DNA from: an uncultured Acidobacteriota bacterium
GTDB taxonomy: Bacteria > Actinomycetota > Acidimicrobiia > Spongiisociales > ZC4RG35
Assembly (NCBI GenBank): GCA_963746905.1
Contig: CAVVCY010000003.1
Coordinates: forward strand, 1,031,296-1,095,295
Direction of reading: 5' to 3'
DNA: 64,000 bases
In this document: piece by piece, positions 589 to 62,934 of the stretch
Position numbering within the stretch: position 1 is the first letter of the stretch
Layout: each line of letters starts with the position of its first letter
Notes under the pieces: model-generated
Databases searched by the model: none
The model's input: only the letters and a program-made list of their open reading frames with translations
Told to the model about the DNA's origin: nothing
Translations under genes and position numbers: made by a program

Positions 589-1560
589 ATGCGAAGGACT
601 GCGCTGCTGATAGCGCTCGTATTGGCGGTGACCGCCTGCAGCACCGCCGGAAGTGGCGACACGACCACTAGCCAGGCATCTGCAACGACGGTGGTCGAAA
701 CCACAACCACCCTGAACACCACGACTACCGCGTCGGATGGTTTCCCGGTGTCGGTGACCGACGGGAACGGCGAGGTGACCATCGAGAGCCAGCCGCAGAG
801 CATCGTCTCGCTGTCCTCAACGGCGACCGAGATGCTCTTTGCGATCGATGCCGGGGACCAGGTGGTGGCGGTCGACGAGTTCTCGGTCTATCCCGAGGAA
901 GCTCCCATCACCGACTTGTCCGGATTCACACCCGACCTGGAGGCGATCCTCGACTACGAGCCGGACCTGGTCGTCATCTCCTTCGACCCGGGTGAGTTGG
1001 TGTCGGGCCTTTCGACTGTTGGGGTTCCCGTGCTGTACCTGCCGACCGCGGGGAGTCTCGACGACTCTTACGCCCAAATCGAGACCCTCGGAGCGGCCAC
1101 CGGACACATCGGTGAGGCTGCAGAGGTGGTGGGCCAGATGCAGGTCGACCTCGATGACATTCTGGCGGCGACCACTGTTCCTCCCGGAATCAGCTTCTAC
1201 CACGAGGTGGATAGCACCCTCTACTCGGCGTCGTCAGCCAGCTTTATAGGCCAGGTCTATGCGTTGCTGGGGATGGAGAACATCGCCGACGAGGCCGATC
1301 CCGACGGGCTCGGCTTTCCCCAACTCGCCTCGGAGTATGTGGTCTCGGCGGACCCCGATCTGATCTTCCTCGCCGATTCCAGCATGGGAGTCACCCCGGA
1401 GAGCCTTGCCGATCGTCCCGGATGGGCGGAGATGACGGCGGTGCAGGGTGGTGCGATCACGGTTCTCGACGAGTATCTGGCATCGAACTGGGGGCCCCGG
1501 GTCGTCGAATTGCTGCAATCGATTGCTGACGCGGTGACGGAGATGGTCCCCGCAGGGTGA
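589..1560 (+). CDS. btuF: Cobalamin/Fe-siderophore ABC transporter substrate-binding lipoprotein (BtuF-like)
   Basis: Lipobox AVTAC, Thr-rich linker, IVSLSSTATEMLFAI and EAILDYEPDLVV motifs; riboswitch context. Confidence 0.8.
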   Translation: MRRTALLIALVLAVTACSTAGSGDTTTSQASATTVVETTTTLNTTTTASDGFPVSVTDGNGEVTIESQPQSIVSLSSTATEMLFAIDAGDQVVAVDEFSVYPEEAPITDLSGFTPDLEAILDYEPDLVVISFDPGELVSGLSTVGVPVLYLPTAGSLDDSYAQIETLGAATGHIGEAAEVVGQMQVDLDDILAATTVPPGISFYHEVDSTLYSASSASFIGQVYALLGMENIADEADPDGLGFPQLASEYVVSADPDLIFLADSSMGVTPESLADRPGWAEMTAVQGGAITVLDEYLASNWGPRVVELLQSIADAVTEMVPAG

Positions 1561-2599
1561 GCCAAGACACGACAGGTTCCGCCACCCGCCCGCCCCGAAT
1601 CGGGCGTGCCCGATGGCTGGCGGCGATCGCGGTCCTTGTCGTTGTCGGAATGGCCGGGATCCTGGTGGGATCGGTAGCGCTCGATCCCACCAGTGTCCTC
1701 AAGGCGCTGGCGGACCGGCTCCCCTTTGTGAGCGTCGCCAGTGGCCTGACCGAAGTCCAGGAGCGGGTTCTCTTCGAGATCCGTCTGCCGAGGGTGGTGA
1801 TGGGAGGCATCGTCGGCTCGGTGCTGGCCCTGGCCGGGGCCGGCTATCAAGGGGTGTTCCGCAACCCACTGGCCGATCCCTACCTCCTTGGAGTGGCCGC
1901 AGGGGCCGGGCTCGGGGCAACATTCGTAATCGGTGCCGGCGGAGCATCGGCCCTGATACCACCGTTCGCCTTTGTCGGTGGACTTGTGGCCGTGTTGGCG
2001 ACCTACGCGGTTGGCCGCACTGCCGGCGGGCGAACGATCACCTCGCTGATCCTGGCCGGGGTTGCAGTGGCCGCCTTCGCAACTGCGATCCAGACTTTTC
2101 TGCTTCAGCGCAACTATGAGACCCTGCGGGAGGTGTACTCGTGGATCCTGGGCCGGCTGGTGACTGTCGGGTGGGGCGAGGTGCTGACCCTCCTCCCATA
2201 CGCCTGGTTGCCGGTGTGGTGCTCGTCCTCTATCGGCGTCTTCTCGACGTGCTCGCCCTCGGGGACGAAGAGGCGTCCGGGCTTGGAGTCGACGTGGTGA
2301 AAGTTCGGCGGGTCGTGGTGCTGGCCGCGACGTTGGCCACCGCGGCCGCGGTCTCCGTCAGCGGGCTGATCGGGTTCGTCGGGATCATCGTCCCCCACAC
2401 CGTGCGGTTGTTGACCGGTTGGAGCTATCGACTCATCATTCCTCTGTCGATTCTCTACGGAGCATCGTTCTTGATCCTCGCTGATCTCGTCGCCAGGACT
2501 GCTGCAGCTCCGGCTGAATTGCCGATCGGTGTCGTCACCGCATTTCTGGGGGCTCCGTTCTTCATCGTGGTCCTGCGCAGTGTTCGAGGCGGCCAATGA
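1557..2599 (+). CDS. btuC: FecCD/BtuC-family ABC permease (frameshift near 2210)
   Basis: IRLPRVVMG, RNPLADPYLLGVAAGA, then in the second frame GLIGFVGIIVPH and ELPIGVVTAFLGAPFF. Confidence 0.8.
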
Positions 2600-3351
2600 T
2601 CGCCTGGCACGAGGTCGCGGTCGCCTTTGGCGGGCCACCCGTGGTGGGCCCACTCTCGCTCACCGTCGTCGACGGGCAGTGGCTCGCCCTGGTCGGGCCG
2701 AACGGCGCCGGCAAGTCGACCTTGCTCAAGGCGGCCGTCGGGATCGTCGAGCACAGTGGTTCCGTCCAATTCGGTGGTCGAGCATCGAGGGCGGGCCTGG
2801 ACGTCGCCTGGATGCCACAACGGCCCTATCTGCCTGACGAGATCTCGGTGACCGACTATGTGCTCCTGGGCCGAACCCCCCATCTCGGCCGATTTGGCAG
2901 TGAGCGGCAGGCCGACCTCGACTCCGTGCAACGTTCGCTGCGACGCCTGGATCTGGACGGGTTCGCCGATCGCCCCTTGGCGACACTGTCCGGGGGCGAG
3001 GCGCAGCGGGCGGTCCTGGCCCGCGCGATCGCACAGGAAGCTCCGGTGCTGCTTCTCGACGAGCCGACTTCCAACCTCGACATCGGCCACTGTCTGGACG
3101 TCCTCGAAATCATCGACGACCTGCGGCTCACCGATGGGCTGACTGTTGTCACCGCACTGCATGATCTGACGCTCGCCGGCAGGTTCGCCGAACGGGCCGT
3201 GATGCTTGCGGCGGGCAAGATCGTTGCCGACGGTTCCCCGGATCAGGTGCTCACTGAAGAGCTGATCAGAGCTCACTACGGTGCCGGTATTCGGGTGGTC
3301 GACATTGGAGAAGGCCCGACTGTGATACCCACCAGGAACCGACGTGTCTGA
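2596..3351 (+). CDS. btuD: ABC transporter ATP-binding protein (BtuD/FecE-like)
   Basis: Walker A GPNGAGKST, signature LSGGE, Walker B LLLDEPT. Confidence 0.85.
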   Translation: MIAWHEVAVAFGGPPVVGPLSLTVVDGQWLALVGPNGAGKSTLLKAAVGIVEHSGSVQFGGRASRAGLDVAWMPQRPYLPDEISVTDYVLLGRTPHLGRFGSERQADLDSVQRSLRRLDLDGFADRPLATLSGGEAQRAVLARAIAQEAPVLLLDEPTSNLDIGHCLDVLEIIDDLRLTDGLTVVTALHDLTLAGRFAERAVMLAAGKIVADGSPDQVLTEELIRAHYGAGIRVVDIGEGPTVIPTRNRRV

Positions 3352-3913
3352 TCCGACGAAGCCTCCCAGCGAGCCACCCCCTGCCGCCACAATGCGCGAG
3401 CCTTCCCTGGTCCTGGTCAACACCGGTGAGGGCAAAGGGAAGTCCACTGCGGCTTTCGGCACCGCGATCCGGGCCGTGGCTCGCGGATGGAGAGTCGGAG
3501 TCATCCAATTCCTCAAATCGGGCGACTGGCACGTCGGCGAAGAAACGATCGGAAGGCAACTCGGAATCGACTGGTGGGCACTTGGCGACGGCTTCACTTG
3601 GGATTCGAAGGACATCGACGAGTCAGAGGCAATCGCCCGCGAGGCATGGTCAGTCGCCAAAGAGAAGATCGGCGACGGCGAATACGACCTCGTCGTGCTT
3701 GACGAAGTCACCTATCCGATCAATTGGGGCTGGATCGCGCTGGACGATGTCCTCGAGGTGATCGCGGCCCGGCCGGTGAACGTGAACCTGATCCTCACCG
3801 GACGCGACGCTCCCGGCGAGCTCGTCGAGGTGGCGGACACGGTGACCGACATGGTCAAGGTGAAGCACGCCTTCGACCGCGGGGTCATGGCGCGGCGCGG
3901 GATCGACTTCTAA
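3344..3913 (+). CDS. cobO: Cob(I)alamin adenosyltransferase CobO/BtuR
   Basis: VNTGEGKGKSTAAFG, QFLKSG, DLVVLDE, TGRDAP, KHAFDRG..ARRGIDF. Confidence 0.9.
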   Translation: MSDPTKPPSEPPPAATMREPSLVLVNTGEGKGKSTAAFGTAIRAVARGWRVGVIQFLKSGDWHVGEETIGRQLGIDWWALGDGFTWDSKDIDESEAIAREAWSVAKEKIGDGEYDLVVLDEVTYPINWGWIALDDVLEVIAARPVNVNLILTGRDAPGELVEVADTVTDMVKVKHAFDRGVMARRGIDF

Positions 3914-4307
3914 CTCAGCTCGGTCACACCCGAAGCCGGAAACGCAAGCTCCAGAGCCTGGTCCACGGTCAGAGCCTCGCCCTCCATGGTGGCGCGGGCG
4001 AATCCAGCAGCCAGCGCCTCCCGCACTGCTGCGACTCTCGAGGAATAGTCGGGCTCGTCCGGGGGCGGCCATGACCGGACCCCTCACCTTCGCTCGCGAT
4101 CCATTCGGCAAGCCCGAACAGGCGACCAGCGGTCTCGTTGTCACCGATGGTGTGCGCGCAGACCGCCAGCCCTGCGACCGCGATCGCGGCGCCCCGCTTG
4201 TCGCCGGCGGCGTCGGCCAGTCTCAGGCTTTCCGCGAGTGCGGTTTTCGACCTCTCGGGTCTCGGGAGGTCATGGTTGGCCCCAAAGTAACAAGCCTTCG
4301 GCCTTGC
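3910..4307 (-). pseudogene. Start-less C-terminal fragment of an ATPase/TPR (AfsR/LuxR-associated) regulator
   Basis: Reads ALAESLRLADAAGDKRG...TAGRLFGLAEWI, then after a G-run frameshift near 4078 PPDEPDYSSRVAAVREAL...MEGEALTVDQALELAF*; no canonical start codon. Confidence 0.5.
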
Positions 4308-5393
4308 TCAGCCGGGGACTGCCACCTCGATTTCGTGGAGTGAATCGGGGGCGACGGCCCGGAGAAGGCGGATCGCCTCATGCTGCACGTCATCTGCGGC
4401 CTTGATGGAGAGGCTCGAAAACGGGGTGATGGTGATCCTGGCCTCCTTCTTGGTGTACGCCAGTTTCCAACTGCCGCGGAGGAATCCGTCGTGCAACAGG
4501 TTGCCCGCCCAACCCGGCGGCTTTGCCCCGGGCCCGATCACCCTCGCCCGGTCGGCATGACCGAGGAGGACGTTGTCGTATTCGGGCAGGAACCGGGTCG
4601 GCGCAGGGGTGTCCGGGTCCGGGCGCGGCGCGTCGAGGAGATCGAAGAGCTCTCGACCATTTTCGTCGGTGAATACCCGGAGCCGGGGCCGAAGCTTCTC
4701 GACGACGGCCGAGAGCTTGGTCACCCCTGACCAGACCCTGATGTCGCTGACCGATGCCGGGCCAAAGGCAGCCAGATATCTGACCACCAGCGACGCGACG
4801 TCCGATTTCCGGTTGGGCTCGGATCCGAGCCAATGCTCCACGGTGGTCCAGGTTGCGGTGCCCTTCCCTTTCCAGAGGCCGCGAGGTGGCAGTTGCACGA
4901 GGGGGAGAAGATATGAGACAGCGTAGGCCATCGATGCTGCGTCCCGCCCGGGCCATTTCTCGGCGAGAAGGCGCCCCAGTTCGGCCCTCCCCATCGGCCT
5001 CCATTCGAGTAGGTGGCGGCCCTGCGCCAGGAGCTCCTCGCGGTCCATCCCGCCGATGGCCCGGGCGAAGGCGGTGGAGCCAAAGGTTCGTCGCGAGACC
5101 GGCCGCACGGTGGCGTCGAGCCCGATGCAGTCAGCGGCAGTGACGAGGTGCAGAGTGGCGCGGAGGAAGGCGGTGCGTACTGCCTTGCGCTCTTCGATCA
5201 GCTTGGAGAGGTCGGCAGGGTCGAATCGCTCGAGCCGGGCCCACAACGCGTAGTAGGGGTCGTGTGGGTTCTGGGCCTGCATCCCCACCAGATGTTCGAT
5301 CGTCTCCGCTACACCCGCTTCCACCCTCTCCAACAGGAACTGGCGTTGCAGTGTTGCCCGATTCAATGCTCGGTTGCTGAGGACATCGGCCAC
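4308..5393 (-). CDS. Winged-helix HTH_42 family protein (AlkZ/YcaQ-like DNA glycosylase)
   Basis: ALNRATLQRQ, LVGMQAQ (QxQ catalytic motif), RATLHLV, YLAAFGPASVSD, FLPEYDNVLLGH. Confidence 0.8.
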   Translation of the reverse strand: MADVLSNRALNRATLQRQFLLERVEAGVAETIEHLVGMQAQNPHDPYYALWARLERFDPADLSKLIEERKAVRTAFLRATLHLVTAADCIGLDATVRPVSRRTFGSTAFARAIGGMDREELLAQGRHLLEWRPMGRAELGRLLAEKWPGRDAASMAYAVSYLLPLVQLPPRGLWKGKGTATWTTVEHWLGSEPNRKSDVASLVVRYLAAFGPASVSDIRVWSGVTKLSAVVEKLRPRLRVFTDENGRELFDLLDAPRPDPDTPAPTRFLPEYDNVLLGHADRARVIGPGAKPPGWAGNLLHDGFLRGSWKLAYTKKEARITITPFSSLSIKAADDVQHEAIRLLRAVAPDSLHEIEVAVPG

Positions 5394-58735: not shown

Positions 58736-59185
58736 ATGGTTGACACTGCGGGTATCGAAGCCATGGGCCCGGTCGAGTTCACACTTCTCGAATTCCCCAA
58801 GAGGTCATTCGATGGCGAGATCGCCAAGGAGCTGGCGGACCTGACTGACCGTGAGATCGTGTCGATCTTCGACCTTCTCTTGGTGAGCAAAGACGAGGAG
58901 GGCAGTCTCGAGGTGGTCGAGCTGGTCGACGCCGAGCCGGCGATCGCTGAGCAGTTCGCTGAGGTGAACGGAGAGGTGATGTGGCTGCTTAGTAACGCAG
59001 ATATCGCAGAGGCGGCTAAGACCCTCAAACCCGACACCATTGGGATCCTCGTTGTGTGGGAGAACGCCTGGGCACGGAACCTGCGCAGCGCCGTCGCCCA
59101 CGCCGGTGGGCGGGTGGTGATCCATGATCGGCTCGACTCCGACGCGGTGGCAGCCTCCATCACCTCATCATCTGGAGGTCAATGA
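58736..59185 (+). CDS. DUF6325/DUF1269-like protein
   Basis: MGPVEFTLLEFP, IFDLLLVSKD, LVVWENAWA, GGRVV. Confidence 0.75.
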   Translation: MVDTAGIEAMGPVEFTLLEFPKRSFDGEIAKELADLTDREIVSIFDLLLVSKDEEGSLEVVELVDAEPAIAEQFAEVNGEVMWLLSNADIAEAAKTLKPDTIGILVVWENAWARNLRSAVAHAGGRVVIHDRLDSDAVAASITSSSGGQ

Positions 59186-59406
59186 TGCTGATCCGACCAC
59201 CCGTCGTCCGCGAGATGCGTCAAGATCTCTGGGTCAAAATGACGGCAACCCCTGGAAGGCATCAGGCCCAGCCGATCGCCGCCGCCCAAGAGAAGCCGGC
59301 GACCGATCTTCGGCTGGAGCGTCTCAAGACCTTGGGTGAGCTCAGGTCTACCGGCGTCCTCAGCGACGATGAGTTCGAGCGCGAGAAGGCGAAAATCCTC
59401 GGTTGA
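59182..59406 (+). CDS. SHOCT domain protein
   Basis: LERLKTLGELRSTGVLSDDEFEREKAKIL. Confidence 0.8.
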   Translation: MMLIRPPVVREMRQDLWVKMTATPGRHQAQPIAAAQEKPATDLRLERLKTLGELRSTGVLSDDEFEREKAKILG

Positions 59407-59488: not shown

Positions 59489-60595
59489 CTAGATGATTGG
59501 CGCGCCTAACTCCAGTGTCGGCGCGCGTTCGTCCACCGCGAACTGGGACTCGACGGACTCATCCAGACGACCTGAGCGAAGGTCGTTCCAGAAGCCAACG
59601 AGATCCTTCCGGTCGACGGTTAGAAAGGCAGTCCCCTTCACGTGACTGAATTTGAAAGTGACGACATCCCATGTCGCCACCGCTGCTTCGACCCGGAAGC
59701 GGTCCCGAACTACCTCGTCCAGGATCAGCCCGTCGATTGGGCGCCTCGGCGTCGGTCGACGGTCCAGGTCGACCGGAGGAACTACCGCCCGAGGCCCCTT
59801 GGCCTCCATGAGGACTCGATCGGCGATGACCAGTTCCGATTTGTCAACCATCCCCTCCAAGGCCTCTCGCGCGCTGAGCCAAGATCTCGCTACATGGGTT
59901 TCGGCAGCAACGCGGCCGCGCCACGTCATCAGATATGGGTTCGTCGCCGTATAGAGGTCAAAGCCGAAGGCCCGCCGATCGAGGTACCAGCCGTATCGAT
60001 CTATCGCGGGATCGACAGTCGACCTGATCGCCGGCGGGAGGGTTCGTTTCGAAGTTCGACGCTCCGCTACCTCAACACAAGCGAGGGCGGCTCCTGAACA
60101 TAGGAGGATCGCTGCCACGAGATGCTGATCGTCGGCGTATTCCCCGCCCACTTCGACGCGACCACGCCGGGGACGGACGAAGACCCCGGGAGATGAGACC
60201 GCGTCTAAGGCCAACATGATCGCCACCCCGAACCGGCACAGCATCATCCACGAAACCTGCACCACGAGGTGATCGGGCACTGAGACGTTGACGTGGGTCG
60301 AGTAGCCCTCGATCTCGTAGCTCTCCCCGAGTGACTCCATGAGAACCGATCGGCCAATCGCCGCGTGATCCAGAAGTCGCCCTGTGAAGCCAGAGGTCAC
60401 TTGTTCGGGCGGGGTAGCGATCTCTGCCTCCCTTCCATCGGAGGTGATGACCAAGCCCCAAGGTGTGCGAACCGCTCGACCATCACCGGGGTCGATCCGC
60501 CTGCCCCCGAAGTCACATGACTCCAACAGGACACGTGCATCGCACAGACCAGTAGGGCCGCCAACCTGATACTCGTGTTCGACTCCGACGATCAC
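59489..60595 (-). CDS. Divergent PafA/Dop (Pup ligase/deamidase)-like carboxylate-amine ligase
   Basis: [54 protein letters not shown] align in order with PafA motifs. Confidence 0.6.
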   Translation of the reverse strand: [368 protein letters not shown]

Positions 60596-60638: not shown

Positions 60639-61526
60639 TCACGGAACACGGGTGCCAATGAGAGTCAGCGATATCTCGACCGCATCCTCACACCCGTCGC
60701 CCCCAGAGCCCGATCCGAAGGATGTGACGTACCGGAACGACTCGACCGTGATCCCGTCCGATCCGTAGGTGGGCTCGACCATGCCCTCTTCAACTCGAAC
60801 AGGAAATCCGCAGAATTCTCCTCGCTGTTCCATGGTCATGAAATCGACGACATACAGGAGACCGGCCGGTGTCAGACTTATAGCGCGGGGAAATCGGTCG
60901 GCAGAGAGGGTGAGCACGCATGAGTCGGAGCTACAGGCCTCCACTTCAGCGGGCCCATCCACGGCGAACGAGAAAGACCCGTTGCGCAATGCCTCGGTAT
61001 TCACATAGCTGACTGTGTCCTCGGCTATCTCGATTTCGGTGCCGGGGGCGGCCCACACGCCTGCGGTGTTGAGGACTACCAAGTCTTGGCTCACGAACTC
61101 GTAGGCACCTTCGAAGCCCAAGAGAGAAGCAACTGGCAACTGCCCTTCAGCGGTGCTTTCCGTCACGGCCGGGCCGCCAGCTTGCAGGGTCGAGGTCGGA
61201 GACCCCACCGTCGAAGGCGTGCCGCCGGCCAACTGCGTCGTCTCGGTGGATCCGTTGCCACCTCCAAGGGCGATCGCTGCGACGGTGCCGACGGCAACGA
61301 TCACGACGACCGCAACCGGAATCAACCATTTCGGCCGGGACCGAGGGGGACCGGTTGAGGAGGAGCTAAACCGAACCTCGCGAACCTCGGACTTGTCGGA
61401 TCTGAGAGAAGATGCGTCGGTCAGCGCTCCGGTGAGAGGATCCCGCTCGAGCTTCAGGAGGGACTTGGGATCGCCGAGCTCTGTCGTGAACCGAAGACCA
61501 GGGCCGTCAGGTTCCCGGCTTGACAT
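60639..61526 (-). CDS. Single-pass membrane protein with Ser/Thr linker and Cys-containing extracytoplasmic domain
   Basis: RPKWLIPVAVVVIVAVGTVAAIAL TM; four Cys in the C-terminal domain. Confidence 0.65.
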   Translation of the reverse strand: MSSREPDGPGLRFTTELGDPKSLLKLERDPLTGALTDASSLRSDKSEVREVRFSSSSTGPPRSRPKWLIPVAVVVIVAVGTVAAIALGGGNGSTETTQLAGGTPSTVGSPTSTLQAGGPAVTESTAEGQLPVASLLGFEGAYEFVSQDLVVLNTAGVWAAPGTEIEIAEDTVSYVNTEALRNGSFSFAVDGPAEVEACSSDSCVLTLSADRFPRAISLTPAGLLYVVDFMTMEQRGEFCGFPVRVEEGMVEPTYGSDGITVESFRYVTSFGSGSGGDGCEDAVEISLTLIGTRVP

Positions 61527-61725
61527 CGTCGCCGCCGGTCAGCTTCTGCTCGGCATGGTCGACCGTGCGCTCGACCGCACGGTCCTGAGCTTTCTCCACT
61601 AACCGATCGGCCATATCCTGAGCCGCGTCGCCCGCCGAACCGACAATGGTCGTCGACGATTCGATAGTCGCCGTCACAGACTCCACGGCGCCGGCAGCCG
61701 CTCCTAGGTTTCCCTTCTCACCCAT
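61507..61725 (-). CDS. 72-aa small protein, Pup-sized
   Basis: AGGAGG RBS 5 nt before ATG 61725; overlaps the next gene's start by 20 nt. Confidence 0.65.
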   Translation of the reverse strand: MGEKGNLGAAAGAVESVTATIESSTTIVGSAGDAAQDMADRLVEKAQDRAVERTVDHAEQKLTGGDDVKPGT

Positions 61726-61908
61726 CCCCACCTCCTATTTAAGAGAACACGCAACGTAATACCCCCGTCGGTGCTAGTCACAATGCTCAGCCTGCACCGG
61801 GTCTTACCCGATGTGGCCACGGGAAATCATCTTTGGGGGGCGGGGAAGTCACACGCCGGTCGCGCACGCCGCGGCACGCGGGATTCGTCTATTAAGGCCC
61901 TGATTGGA

Positions 61909-62934
61909 CTACCGACCGACAGTGCTCTCGCGGATCACCAGCTCGGCGCGGAGTGGGATGACCACAGGCGCGGTCTCGCTGCCGTCGAACTCAGACGACA
62001 GCCTTCGCACCGCCTGTCGCCCCATTTCCGTGAGTGGTTGCTCTACAGAGGTGAGGGGCGGTGCAAACCAGGCGGCTTCATCGATGTCGTCAAAGCCGGT
62101 GACCGCCACATCTTGGGGAATGCGAAGTCCTCTGTTGCGGAGAACATGCATGGCGCCAAGCGCCATCCGGTCGTTGCCGGCCACCACGGCATCGAGATCC
62201 GGGACGCGGTCGAGGAGGGCCTCCATTGCGGCGGCTCCGCTGGCGGGAGACCAGTCGCCCTCTTCGCAGAGGCCGGGCTCGGCCTCGAGATGGTGCCGCT
62301 TCAGGCCGCGCTCCCACCCCTCCCGGCGGTACTCGGCCTCTTGCCAGTTGACCGGGCCGGAGATATGGCCGATCCGGGATCGGCCAATCGACACCACGTG
62401 GTCAATGACATCCTCGATAGCGGCGAGGTTGTCGACGAGCACGCTCGAGTGTCTGTCCGACACGCCGGCCTTGACGAATACCACCGGGTCATGGTGGTCG
62501 GAAAGCACCGCCTTGATGCGGTCCACCGCCTGCCCAATGGCAGGGACTGACATGATTATTCCGTCGACGTGATGCTCGACCAGGGCGGAGATGGCAGGAC
62601 GCGGATCGTCGAGGCTGTCGCCTTCGGGCAGCTCGGCGATGAGCACCGTTAGCCCGAGACTCGCCGCCTCATCGATGATGCCTTGCAAGGTGGATGCTGT
62701 GCCGGTGTATCGCATGCCGGCGAGGAGCACGCCGATCGAATGGCTGCGCCGGGCCACGAGAGTTCGAGCGACGGCACTCGGCGTGTATCCGAGGGTGGCA
62801 ATAACGCCTTCGACCCGCTCCCTTGTGTCGGCCGCCACATCAGGGCGGTTGTTGATGACGCGGGACACGGTCTGTGTTGACACGCCACTCCGCGCAGCAA
62901 CATCCTTGATCGTGACCCTGCCCGACCCCAACAT
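61909..62934 (-). CDS. LacI family transcriptional regulator
   Basis: VTIKDVAARSGVSTQTVSRVIN, VTGFDD, PPLTSV, LVIREST. Confidence 0.93.
   Translation of the reverse strand: MLGSGRVTIKDVAARSGVSTQTVSRVINNRPDVAADTRERVEGVIATLGYTPSAVARTLVARRSHSIGVLLAGMRYTGTASTLQGIIDEAASLGLTVLIAELPEGDSLDDPRPAISALVEHHVDGIIMSVPAIGQAVDRIKAVLSDHHDPVVFVKAGVSDRHSSVLVDNLAAIEDVIDHVVSIGRSRIGHISGPVNWQEAEYRREGWERGLKRHHLEAEPGLCEEGDWSPASGAAAMEALLDRVPDLDAVVAGNDRMALGAMHVLRNRGLRIPQDVAVTGFDDIDEAAWFAPPLTSVEQPLTEMGRQAVRRLSSEFDGSETAPVVIPLRAELVIRESTVGR

What the first reader, a model, noticed from the sequence alone, without database searches (positions are those of the whole stretch)
61507..61725. Pup-sized peptide with a helical C-terminal half ending QKLTGGD plus a short tail
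Seen: MGEKGNLGAAAGAVESVTATIESSTTIVGSAGDAAQDMADRLVEKAQDRAVERTVDHAEQKLTGGDDVKPGT; no aromatic or Cys residues, likely disordered N-half, charged helical C-half. Established: Pup is ~64 aa, disordered, and ends ...YVQKGG(E/Q). Inference: a Pup analogue with QK-x-x-GG-acidic. Caveats: the residue is Asp rather than Glu, and six more residues follow (inside the overlap with the next gene), so processing or different chemistry would be needed.
Basis: partly seen in the sequence, partly recalled or inferred. Interest (0 to 1): 0.65.

Follow-up and report, generated by a model that had tools for sequence, protein, structure and literature searches.

The report
Small protein with N-terminal MGEKGN tag

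Summary
The ORF (61507-61725, minus strand) reads exactly as reported and is under purifying selection (dN/dS 0.22). It is not a Pup homologue. No Pup HMM matches it. The genome has a canonical Dop-Pup-PafA locus elsewhere. The C-terminal QKLTGGD is shared only with one 74%-identical relative and overlaps the next gene's start region.

What is conserved is the N-terminus. 45 of 80 related loci encode a small protein starting exactly M-G-E-K-G-N, with synonymous codon variation and a Shine-Dalgarno site, mostly 250-430 nt upstream of a homologue of the window's 368-aa protein. Looser variants (MEKGN, MERGN, MGEKE., MGE[VF]GN) bring this to about 75 of 84. Only the Glu is invariant, and it should always be residue 2 of the mature protein.

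The 368-aa protein folds like Dop/PafA (Foldseek E 5e-7) and keeps the GhExE signature. Its active-site motif G-[Y/F]-S-T-H switches to a non-Y/F residue whenever the partner lacks Gly2 (78 of 78 pairs, 3-5 independent switches).

Best reading: the N-terminal X-Glu is fed into the ligase, and its side-chain carboxylate is activated and joined to an unknown amine. No public source names or describes the family.

The parts
61507..61725 (-). Gene for the 72-aa small acidic protein (MGEKGN...QKLTGGDDVKPGT)
   Evidence: ORF and translation; dN/dS 0.22 against L004; member of a partner-peptide family found at most ligase loci
61708..61725 (-). Codons for the conserved N-terminal tag M-G-E-K-G-N; Glu3 (61717-61719) is the only residue invariant across all variants
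   Evidence: 45 loci carry exactly [M/V/L]GEKGN with synonymous codon variation (GGC/GGT/GGA/GGG, GAG/GAA, AAG/AAA, AAC/AAT); variants; it is the only such pattern in the 2.09-Mb genome
61731..61736 (-). Shine-Dalgarno AGGAGG, 5 nt before the ATG
   Evidence: Sequence; comparable purine-rich sites precede the tag codons in the other loci
61507..61526 (-). 20-nt overlap of the peptide's 3' end with the start of the next gene. The G-G-D-D codons (61525-61536) hold that gene's ATG (61524-61526) and the G-rich stretch just upstream of it
   Evidence: Codon-by-codon comparison of the window and L004
60639..61526 (-). 295-aa single-pass membrane protein: cytosolic N-terminal tail, TM helix (about 61260-61328), extracytoplasmic domain. 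It is a split-off equivalent of the C-terminal module that is fused to the ligase in many homologues
   Evidence: No Pfam or NCBIfam family; the same gene order in L004; fused architectures in A1, e.g. P0028, P0010, P0019; shared linker motif
61437..61478 (-). Cytosolic linker motif LGDPKSLLKLERDP (residues 17-30 of the membrane protein)
   Evidence: The regex LG.{4}LL.{2}ER.P hits once in the whole six-frame window. Elsewhere it hits only the post-catalytic linker of the ligase frame at three of the fetched loci (L053, L054, L080) among about 1.06 M residues. A relaxed form ending E-R is found in 21 long-form ligases
59489..60595 (-). 368-aa PafA/Dop-fold carboxylate-amine-ligase-like enzyme, the cognate partner of the small protein
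   Evidence: AF2 model pLDDT 88; Foldseek top hits are Dop 7oy3/5lrt/4b0r (E 5e-7 to 2e-6, prob 1.0), then YbdK and glutamine synthetase; conserved motifs; no Pfam hit
60572..60586 (-). G-V-E-H-E (residues 4-8): the GhExE signature of carboxylate-amine/ammonia ligases
   Evidence: Nearly invariant G4, E6 and E8 in A1; the signature is defined in PMC2588565; it aligns with PafA GIENEY
60293..60307 (-). G-Y-S-T-H (residues 97-101), an active-site strand. Its His aligns with the Mg-binding His of Dop, and Tyr98 covaries with the first residue of the partner peptide
   Evidence: hhalign pairs GYSTH with SYG.HENY; Mg ligands of Dop are listed in PMC8599861; covariation and tree

Best explanation
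The 72-aa protein is the dedicated small-protein substrate or tag of the PafA/Dop-like enzyme encoded two genes downstream. Its functional handle is its N-terminus, not its C-terminus. After methionine removal the mature protein should begin G-E-K-G-N. This end is recognised in the enzyme's active site. By analogy with every characterised carboxylate-amine ligase of this fold (GS, GCL, PafA), the side-chain carboxylate of Glu2 would be phosphorylated with ATP and then joined to an amine. The amine is unknown; it could be a protein lysine, as in pupylation, or a small or membrane-proximal amine. The enzyme works at the membrane: its anchor module is fused to it in many relatives and is a separate gene here. 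The rest of the small protein (Ala/Thr-rich stretch, amphipathic helix, acidic tail with QKLTGGD) is lineage-specific cargo or spacer.

Shown: the gene is real; the tag is conserved at the protein level; the peptide and enzyme are tightly linked in genomes; the enzyme has a Dop-like fold with an intact motif set; peptide residue 1 covaries with an active-site-strand residue.

Inferred: Met removal, docking in the active site, activation of Glu2, and the identity of the acceptor.
For: (1) Linkage. 45 of 80 loci fetched with the enzyme profile carry an ORF starting exactly [M/V/L]GEKGN. A looser M[G/T]?E[K/R/V/F] start with a Shine-Dalgarno-like site lies 150-1300 nt upstream on the same strand in 67 of 84 loci, against 0.87% of background starts. 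Most other loci carry it within 3 kb.

(2) Protein-level conservation. All four Gly codons, both Glu codons, both Lys codons and both Asn codons are used.

(3) One-to-one pairing. The window's genome has exactly one such start and one enzyme. The pattern hits in enzyme-negative genomes that could be read (four of five) lie inside longer open frames and have no Shine-Dalgarno site; the fifth was not resolved.

(4) Only Glu is invariant among the roughly 80 partners. Lys is Arg, Val or Phe in some. MG-E, MT-E and M-E starts all put Glu at mature position 2 under the standard Met-aminopeptidase rule (established knowledge).

(5) Enzyme. The Foldseek top 7 hits are all Dop. GhExE is present. D53-x4-E58-x2-T-P aligns with Dop D94...E99..TP, and H101 aligns with His155.

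(6) Covariation. Partners starting MG have Y/F before S-T-H in the enzyme (61 of 61). Partners without Gly have G/V/C/L/M/A/S (13 of 13). The tree needs 5 coordinated changes, of which at least 3 are forced by well-supported branches. Three of four further pairs fetched afterwards fit the aromatic-versus-Gly prediction.
Against: There is no biochemical evidence at all. An AlphaFold run on a natural read-through fusion of peptide and enzyme (L017) left the tag undocked at pLDDT <50. Sequence-level homology of the enzyme to PafA/Dop is weak (hhalign E 0.03, probability <2%; no Pfam hit). The Foldseek hits are to the hydrolase Dop, not the ligase PafA, so the reaction direction is not settled. 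The covariation rule was found post hoc. One later pair (GWSTH with MERGN) breaks a simple size-complementarity reading, and the sign test on independent pairs cannot reach significance (p 0.25). The conserved linker of the membrane module also has a near-invariant Glu, which could be the activated carboxylate instead. No conserved target or acceptor has been identified.
Confidence: 0.5

Rival explanations
1. One reading: a Pup analogue that is ligated through a C-terminal QK-x-x-GG-Asp handle, possibly after the last six residues are trimmed.
For: Pup-like size and charge, and a GG-acidic motif near the C-terminus. QKLTGG is identical in the one close relative, P0002. A loose G-D-D acidic patch recurs 5-6 residues from the end in several subfamily members.
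Against: GG[DEQ] is found in the last 14 residues of only 8 of 57 partners, and there is no conserved terminal residue. No C-terminal column is conserved in the 21-member subfamily alignment. No Pup HMM hit in 52 peptides. The GGD codons overlap the next gene's start region. No protease is conserved in the neighbourhood. A canonical Pup with Dop and PafA exists elsewhere in the genome.
Confidence: 0.03
2. The peptide supplies the amine rather than the carboxylate. Its free N-terminal amino group (or Lys4) is joined by the enzyme to a carboxylate elsewhere. One candidate is the near-invariant Glu of the juxtamembrane linker motif (...LL-x-x-E-R), which would tether the small protein covalently to the membrane module. 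Glu2 would then serve only for recognition.
For: The tag sits at the extreme N-terminus with fixed register. The linker motif with a near-invariant Glu is conserved in 21 long-form enzymes and in the window's separate membrane protein. Residue 1 of the peptide covaries with the active-site strand.
Against: Lys4 is replaced by Arg, Val or Phe in some partners, so it cannot be a universal nucleophile. Short-form enzymes without any linker or anchor exist (P0007, P0008). Characterised enzymes of this fold activate a glutamate side chain, and the only invariant residue of the tag is Glu.
Confidence: 0.15
3. No covalent chemistry on the peptide. The small protein is a regulator, pseudo-substrate inhibitor or adaptor that plugs the enzyme's active site with its N-terminus. 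Alternatively the enzyme acts as a Dop-like amidase on something else.
For: The best structural matches are the hydrolase Dop, not PafA. Pairing is one-to-one and in cis, as in enzyme-regulator pairs. The bodies of the partners are highly variable.
Against: A strictly conserved terminal Glu in a fixed register, together with a complete catalytic motif set in the enzyme (E6, E8, D53, E58, H101, R141, R143, R146, E148), is what a substrate relationship predicts. Nothing else is conserved in the neighbourhood that could be the true substrate.
Confidence: 0.15
4. RiPP-like precursor: the N-terminal pentapeptide is a core that is modified and released as a small molecule, and the variable remainder acts as a follower peptide.
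For: A conserved short core next to a modifying enzyme, with the rest of the peptide variable. N-terminal cores with follower peptides are known for bottromycins (own knowledge).
Against: No protease, transporter or further tailoring enzyme is conserved nearby. Partner bodies range from 34 to more than 260 aa and include folded-looking domains such as zinc ribbons and Trp-rich repeats, which fits a tagged protein better than a disposable follower.
Confidence: 0.05

Closest known systems
Pup with PafA/Dop (pupylation; Pfam PF05639 and PF03136)
   Same: A small, acidic, probably disordered protein is paired with an enzyme of the PafA/Dop fold. That enzyme has the GhExE signature, an Asp-x4-Glu-x2-Thr-Pro strand, a metal-binding His and a small extra C-terminal domain. 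A single invariant Glu sits next to a protein terminus and is flanked by Gly and Lys.
   Different: The handle is N-terminal (X-E-K-G-N) instead of C-terminal (K-G-G-E/Q). There are no Pup or Pup_ligase HMM matches. There is no linkage to Mpa or the proteasome. The enzyme is about 100 residues shorter and is membrane-anchored, either fused or through a separate gene. The partner's body is not conserved between lineages. Pairing is one enzyme to one cis-encoded partner. The system also occurs in Chloroflexota, Dormibacterota and some Proteobacteria.
UBact (Pup-like modifier of Nitrospirae, Verrucomicrobia and others)
   Same: A small disordered putative modifier associated with PafA/Dop-family enzymes outside Actinobacteria (own knowledge).
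   Different: UBact keeps a conserved C-terminal Gly-Glu/Gln-type end and sits in proteasome/Mpa-type loci. Here the C-terminus is unconserved and there is no proteasome linkage.
GCS2/YbdK and glutamine synthetase (carboxylate-amine ligases)
   Same: Same fold and first half-reaction logic (ATP-dependent activation of a glutamate side-chain carboxylate). YbdK 1r8g is the next-best structural hit (E 8e-5).
   Different: Those enzymes act on free glutamate. This family has a dedicated protein partner and a PafA/Dop-like extra C-terminal domain.
Terminal sorting or processing tags paired with dedicated enzymes (e.g. LPXTG-sortase, PEP-CTERM-exosortase)
   Same: A very short invariant motif at a protein terminus is attached to otherwise unrelated protein bodies and co-occurs with one dedicated enzyme.
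   Different: Those tags are C-terminal, extracytoplasmic and handled by transpeptidases. This tag is N-terminal, cytoplasmic and paired with an ATP-dependent ligase fold.

Membership tests
Pup (PF05639) | Match to the Pup profile HMM | tested here: not met
   No Pup hit at E<=1 for the window peptide or for any of 52 partner peptides. The same HMM finds the genome's true Pup at C2:150062-150241 with E 7e-18.
Pup (PF05639) | Strictly conserved extreme C-terminal Gly-Gly-Glu/Gln | tested here: not met
   The window ends GGDDVKPGT. GG[DEQ] is within the last 14 residues in 8 of 57 partners, and the terminal residue varies (A, S, R, G, T and others). No C-terminal column is conserved in A4.
Pup (PF05639) | Genomic linkage to Dop, PafA, Mpa/ARC or the proteasome | tested here: not met
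   The canonical Dop-Pup-PafA locus lies on another contig. Clustering of neighbours in the 80 loci found no other widely conserved gene and no Pup-proteasome gene near the peptide.
Pup (PF05639) | Small, intrinsically disordered, acidic protein | tested here: inconclusive
   72 aa, net charge -6, no aromatic residues or Cys. A homologous peptide is modelled at pLDDT <55. No dedicated disorder predictor was available.
Pup ligase / Dop family (PF03136) | Match to the Pup_ligase profile HMM | tested here: not met
   No Pfam or NCBIfam family at E<=1 for the 368-aa protein. hhalign against a 28-sequence PafA/Dop alignment gives E 0.03, probability 1.7%.
Pup ligase / Dop family (PF03136) | PafA/Dop three-dimensional fold (GS-like beta-sheet cradle plus small C-terminal domain) | tested here: met
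   The AF2 model (pLDDT 88, pTM 0.87) has Dop structures as its top seven Foldseek hits (E 4.6e-7 to 2.7e-5, prob 1.0, TM 0.44-0.55). The C-terminal ATWD..VF stretch aligns weakly with Dop's C-terminal domain.
Carboxylate-amine/ammonia ligase superfamily | GhExE signature on the first core strand, metal-binding acidic residues and His, and arginine fingers | tested here: met
   Conserved in 27 family members: nearly invariant G4, E6, E8 and E56; invariant D53, E58, H101, R141, R143, R146, E148 and R200. The signature is defined in PMC2588565. Dop's Mg ligands Glu8, Glu10, Glu99 and His155 (PMC8599861) map onto E6, E8, E58 and H101 through the alignments.
MGEKGN-tagged partner proteins (unnamed family proposed here) | N-terminal M-[G]-E-[K/R]-G-N start, encoded beside the PafA/Dop-like enzyme | tested here: met
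   The window peptide starts MGEKGN behind AGGAGG, two genes upstream of the enzyme. The same arrangement is in L004. The family was recovered at most enzyme loci.
RiPP precursor peptides | Conserved neighbouring protease/transporter and tailoring enzymes; short dispensable leader or follower | tested here: not met
   Nothing beyond the enzyme and the membrane module is conserved in the neighbourhood. Partner lengths run from 34 to more than 260 aa.

The most novel reading that the evidence does not exclude
A second, proteasome-independent and membrane-associated protein-tagging system, a kind of reverse Pup. A small protein would be conjugated to lysines of target proteins through the side chain of Glu2 at its N-terminus by a compact PafA/Dop-like ligase. 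The system is spread patchily by horizontal transfer across Actinomycetota, Chloroflexota and a few Proteobacteria.
Probability: 0.22. Interest if true: 0.9.

Novelty: new variant of a known kind. Interest (0 to 1): 0.74.

Why it matters
Pupylation is the only known protein tagging that uses the glutamine-synthetase-type ligase fold, and it uses a C-terminal Glu. Here a distant PafA/Dop relative is paired one-to-one with a protein whose only conserved feature is an N-terminal X-Glu-Lys-Gly-Asn. It has no link to the proteasome and carries a membrane anchor. If the Glu is ligated, this would be a new post-translational chemistry (side-chain conjugation from the N-terminal end) and a compact enzyme-plus-5-residue-tag pair that could be useful as a ligation tool. 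The hypothesis is directly testable. The tag is five residues long, the predicted reactive residue is a single Glu, and cultured strains carry the system: Knoellia locipacati NBRC 109775, Knoellia sp. LjRoot47 and Tenggerimyces flavus. The sources that name the peptide at all call it 'hypothetical protein', and it matches no Pfam, NCBIfam, PADLOC or PHROG family.

Tried and rejected
1. Pup/UBact-type C-terminal handle: rejected.
2. Conservation of the tag at the RNA or DNA level (a regulatory element): rejected, because all synonymous codons are used and the motif sits directly behind Shine-Dalgarno sites.
3. Chance occurrence: the exact pattern occurs once in the genome. Of the five hits in enzyme-negative relatives, the four that could be read are internal to longer frames; the fifth was not resolved.
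4. Docking the tag by AlphaFold, using a natural read-through fusion (stop read as Gly; 18-row paired alignment A2): the enzyme part was confident, but the peptide had pLDDT <50, so nothing could be concluded.
5. Profile HMM of the linker region against the window's ORFs: not significant (E 2.6). Pairwise BLAST was weak (E 0.22). A strict regex then showed that the motif is specific.
6. Conserved-neighbour census: only the enzyme and its antisense shadow ORFs recur.
7. Covariation of peptide position 5 with the SPGLLVRPR loop: mostly one clade plus one extra event, too few to count. Covariation of position 4 has too few variant loci.
8. PADLOC and PHROGs: nothing. Profile search of PDB sequences: nothing. 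Promoter and terminator scan: nothing.
9. Literature search for GEKGN or PafA-like systems: nothing relevant beyond PMC2588565.
Full report
**Observation.**
- It has no aromatic residue and no Cys, and its net charge is -6.
- The ATG at 61725 follows AGGAGG (61731-61736) at a 5-nt spacing. The longer GTG start at 61731 overlaps that site, so ATG is the start.
- The last 20 nt overlap the next ORF (60639-61526, 295 aa, single-pass membrane protein). A 368-aa ORF follows (59489-60595).
- The gene is real. Against its only close relative (P0002 on locus L004, 74% identity, same three-gene order) 24 codons differ only synonymously and 20 differ non-synonymously, giving dN 0.20, dS 0.92 and dN/dS 0.22.

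**The Pup reading fails on its own test.**
- The genome has a canonical Dop-Pup-PafA locus on another contig, found with the Pfam models at E 1e-167 to 1e-169 and 7e-18.
- The window peptide matches no Pup model, and neither does any of 52 related peptides.
- I fetched 80 loci encoding relatives of the 368-aa protein and collected their partner peptides. GG[DEQ] lies in the last 14 residues of only 8 of 57, never at a fixed distance and never as the terminal residues. The last residue is A, S, R, G, T and others.
- In an alignment of 21 members of the window's own subfamily (shared IERVTTTTT and DKAID..DA.I.EAR.R blocks) the invariant columns are M1, E3, K4, G5 and N6 only. The tails are either loosely G-D-D acidic or Pro-rich.
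- In the window and in L004 the G-G-(D/G)-D codons read GGCGGCG[A/G]CGATG. They hold the ATG of the overlapping downstream gene and the G-rich stretch before it. That alone can explain why the motif is conserved between these two close relatives.

**What is conserved is the N-terminus.**
- 45 loci carry an ORF that starts exactly [M/V/L]-G-E-K-G-N. Every synonymous codon is in use (Gly GGC/GGT/GGA/GGG, Glu GAG/GAA, Lys AAG/AAA, Asn AAC/AAT) and a purine-rich ribosome-binding site sits just upstream. The conservation is therefore at the protein level and at a true start.
- These ORFs mostly lie 250-430 nt upstream of the enzyme gene on the same strand. In one actinomycete group they lie 2-3 kb away.
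- Other loci carry variants: MEKGN, MERGN, MGEKGD/T/L, MGEKE[TQIS], MGEKAN, MGE[VF]GN, MEKTN, MTEKPD and MGEKYDD.
- A loose pattern M[G/T]?E[K/R/V/F] behind a Shine-Dalgarno-like site is present 150-1300 nt upstream on the same strand in 67 of 84 loci, against 0.87% of all other candidate starts in the same DNA. A few of the 67 are visibly chance picks.
- The window's genome has exactly one such start and exactly one enzyme gene.
- In a 201-genome sample of the class only 4 genomes have the enzyme, and all 4 have an M(G)EK... protein just upstream. Of the five pattern hits in enzyme-negative genomes, the four that could be read lie inside longer open frames and have no Shine-Dalgarno site; the fifth was not resolved.
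- The partner bodies are otherwise unrelated: 34 to more than 260 residues, some with a C-terminal zinc ribbon, some Trp-rich, some Gly-rich.
- Among the partner peptides found across public protein sources, those that carry a name are called 'hypothetical protein', and none has a Pfam domain.

**Which residue matters.** Across all partners found (about 80) only the Glu is invariant. Lys is Arg in the MERGN group and Val or Phe in three Chloroflexota loci. The Gly after Lys and the Asn also vary. Methionine aminopeptidase removes Met before Gly or Thr and keeps it before Glu (established knowledge). MG-E..., MT-E... and M-E... therefore all give a mature protein with Glu at position 2. This is an inference and was not measured.

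**The enzyme.**
- The 368-aa protein has no Pfam, NCBIfam, PADLOC or PHROG match.
- Its AlphaFold model is confident (pLDDT 88, pTM 0.87).
- Its seven best PDB matches are all the depupylase Dop (E 4.6e-7 to 2.7e-5, probability 1.0, TM 0.44-0.55). YbdK/GCS2 and glutamine synthetase come next.
- The family conserves G-h-E-x-E, the signature of carboxylate-amine ligases (PMC2588565), and also TADGxEAEIATPP, GYSTH, SPGLLVRPRxGRxE and RxGWYVDRRAFGxDLY.
- Profile-profile comparison with a 28-sequence PafA/Dop alignment is statistically weak (E 0.03). It does pair D53-x4-E58-x2-T-P with Dop's D94...E99..T-P, and H101 with the HENY histidine. Glu8, Glu10, Glu99 and His155 are Mg ligands in Dop (PMC8599861).
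- The C-terminal ATWD..VF stretch aligns weakly with Dop's small C-terminal domain, which that paper describes as unique to the pupylation enzymes.
- I therefore treat the enzyme as a remote structural relative of PafA/Dop with an apparently intact active site, not as a member of PF03136.

**Membrane module.** Many homologues continue after the catalytic part into a linker, a TM helix and a variable extracytoplasmic domain. In the window this module is a separate gene placed between the peptide and the enzyme. Its cytosolic tail carries LGDPKSLLKLERDP. The regex LG.{4}LL.{2}ER.P hits once in the six-frame window. Elsewhere it hits only the post-catalytic linker of the ligase frame at three of the fetched loci (L053, L054, L080) among about 1.06 million residues. 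A relaxed form ending in Glu-Arg occurs in 21 long-form enzymes. An HMM of the region and pairwise BLAST were not significant, so this rests on the motif and the architecture.

**Evidence that the tag meets the active site.**
- I labelled 74 enzyme-partner pairs by the partner's N-terminus and scanned the enzyme alignment for informative columns. The best column is the residue before S-T-H in G-[Y]-S-T-H. It is Y or F in all 61 enzymes whose partner starts M-G-E. It is G, V, C, L, M, A or S in all 13 whose partner lacks the Gly.
- On a maximum-likelihood tree built without that column, both traits need 5 changes (at least 3 forced by well-supported branches) and they always change together. 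Examples are L022/L084 as sisters, and two reversions nested inside the no-Gly clade.
- With so few independent pairs the sign test cannot reach significance (p 0.25).
- I then fetched four further pairs. GVSTH, GCSTH and GGSTH enzymes have MERGN, MEKGN and MEKGN partners, as predicted. A GWSTH enzyme has MERGN. This fits 'Y/F goes with Gly' but not a simple size-complementarity story.
- An attempt to dock the tag with AlphaFold used a natural in-frame read-through of the stop codon between peptide and enzyme, with an 18-row paired alignment. The peptide came out at pLDDT <50, so the run was uninformative.

**Interpretation.** The peptide is the cis-encoded substrate or tag of a PafA/Dop-like enzyme, and its handle is the N-terminal X-Glu-Lys-Gly-Asn. 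All characterised ligases of this fold phosphorylate a glutamate side-chain carboxylate and then add an amine. The most economical mechanism is therefore activation of Glu2 and amide formation with an amine that remains unknown. Alternatives not excluded:
- The N-terminal amine of the peptide is the nucleophile, and the conserved linker Glu is the activated carboxylate.
- The peptide is a non-covalent plug or regulator.
- The peptide is an N-terminal RiPP-like core.

I put about 0.85 on 'the N-terminal tag is the recognition element for this enzyme', about 0.5 on Glu2 ligation, and about 0.2-0.25 on true protein tagging.

**Comparison and novelty.** The system works like pupylation in outline but fails every sequence-defined membership test for Pup and for PF03136. 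It uses the opposite terminus, is membrane-associated, is not linked to the proteasome, and occurs patchily in Actinomycetota, Chloroflexota, Dormibacterota and a few Proteobacteria. 123 relatives were found among about 185,000 species genomes. I found no description in the literature searched. Two earlier notes of this scan reached the same MGEKGN observation from the enzyme side. They are not independent evidence, but I re-derived the point here.

**Limits.** Model coordinates could not be inspected, so the position of Tyr98 relative to the catalytic centre is inferred from sequence alignment only.

Noticed in passing
G000 contig C2:148584-153009 (loci L001-L003): The same genome carries a canonical Dop - Pup - PafA locus, so the MGEKGN system is an addition to pupylation, not a replacement.
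   Followed up: partly
window 59489-60595 (-): The public gene call for this enzyme (P0003, 283 aa) starts at Met86 and so lacks the GhExE strand and the TADG..EAE motif. The full 368-aa frame from the GTG at 60595 matches its homologues from residue 2 onward.
   Followed up: partly
L010, L016, L024, L029, L039, L048, L074, L075 (Dermatophilaceae, Knoellia, Humibacillus type): In this group the small 'TWD..VF' domain sits at the N-terminus of the enzyme instead of the C-terminus (a domain permutation). The MGEKGN gene lies 2-3 kb away, sometimes on the other strand.
   Followed up: no
L125 2548-4662 (Tenggerimyces flavus GCA_016907715.1): In this cultured actinomycete the enzyme gene appears split. 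A 68-aa ORF carries the GIEQEF strand and is followed by a 553-aa ORF starting at MITADGREAE. This is either a frameshift or an assembly error. An MEKGN peptide lies just upstream.
   Followed up: no
L032 4283-5900: Three tandem MEKGN-type ORFs (134-238 aa, with repeats like PDGSKLRLDG) precede one enzyme gene, so some systems may have several partners.
   Followed up: no
L053 5758-5913, L057 5788-5919, L072 5825-5965: Very short partners (43-51 aa) consist of the tag plus a C-terminal CxxC...CPxC zinc-ribbon-like motif. Two hit Pfam Zn_ribbon_3 weakly.
   Followed up: no
L043 8048, L077 8055, L082 8034: MGEKGT-type partners (68 aa, Trp-rich, GW repeats) lie about 2 kb after the start of the enzyme gene rather than upstream.
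   Followed up: no
L094 (G192:C30) 1335-5141 (-): Here the enzyme is embedded in a 1268-aa ORF with a very large extracytoplasmic C-terminal region. Its partner is a roughly 210-aa protein starting MGEKYDD.
   Followed up: no
window 58736-59406 (+): A DUF6325 protein (E 1e-9) and a 74-aa SHOCT-domain protein lie convergent to the operon's 3' end. There is no evidence that they belong to the system.
   Followed up: no
window 61909-62934 (-): A LacI-family regulator lies directly upstream in the same orientation, separated by a 183-nt gap. It is not conserved at the other loci.
   Followed up: partly
enzyme alignment, window residues 135-143 (SPGVFVRPR): Partners with a non-Gly residue at tag position 5 (MGEKE., MGEKPN, MTEKPD) tend to have S-[QYHLR]-G-[VI]-Y-.-RPR instead of SPGLLVRPR in the enzyme. 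This is mostly one clade plus one independent case, so it is only a hint.
   Followed up: partly
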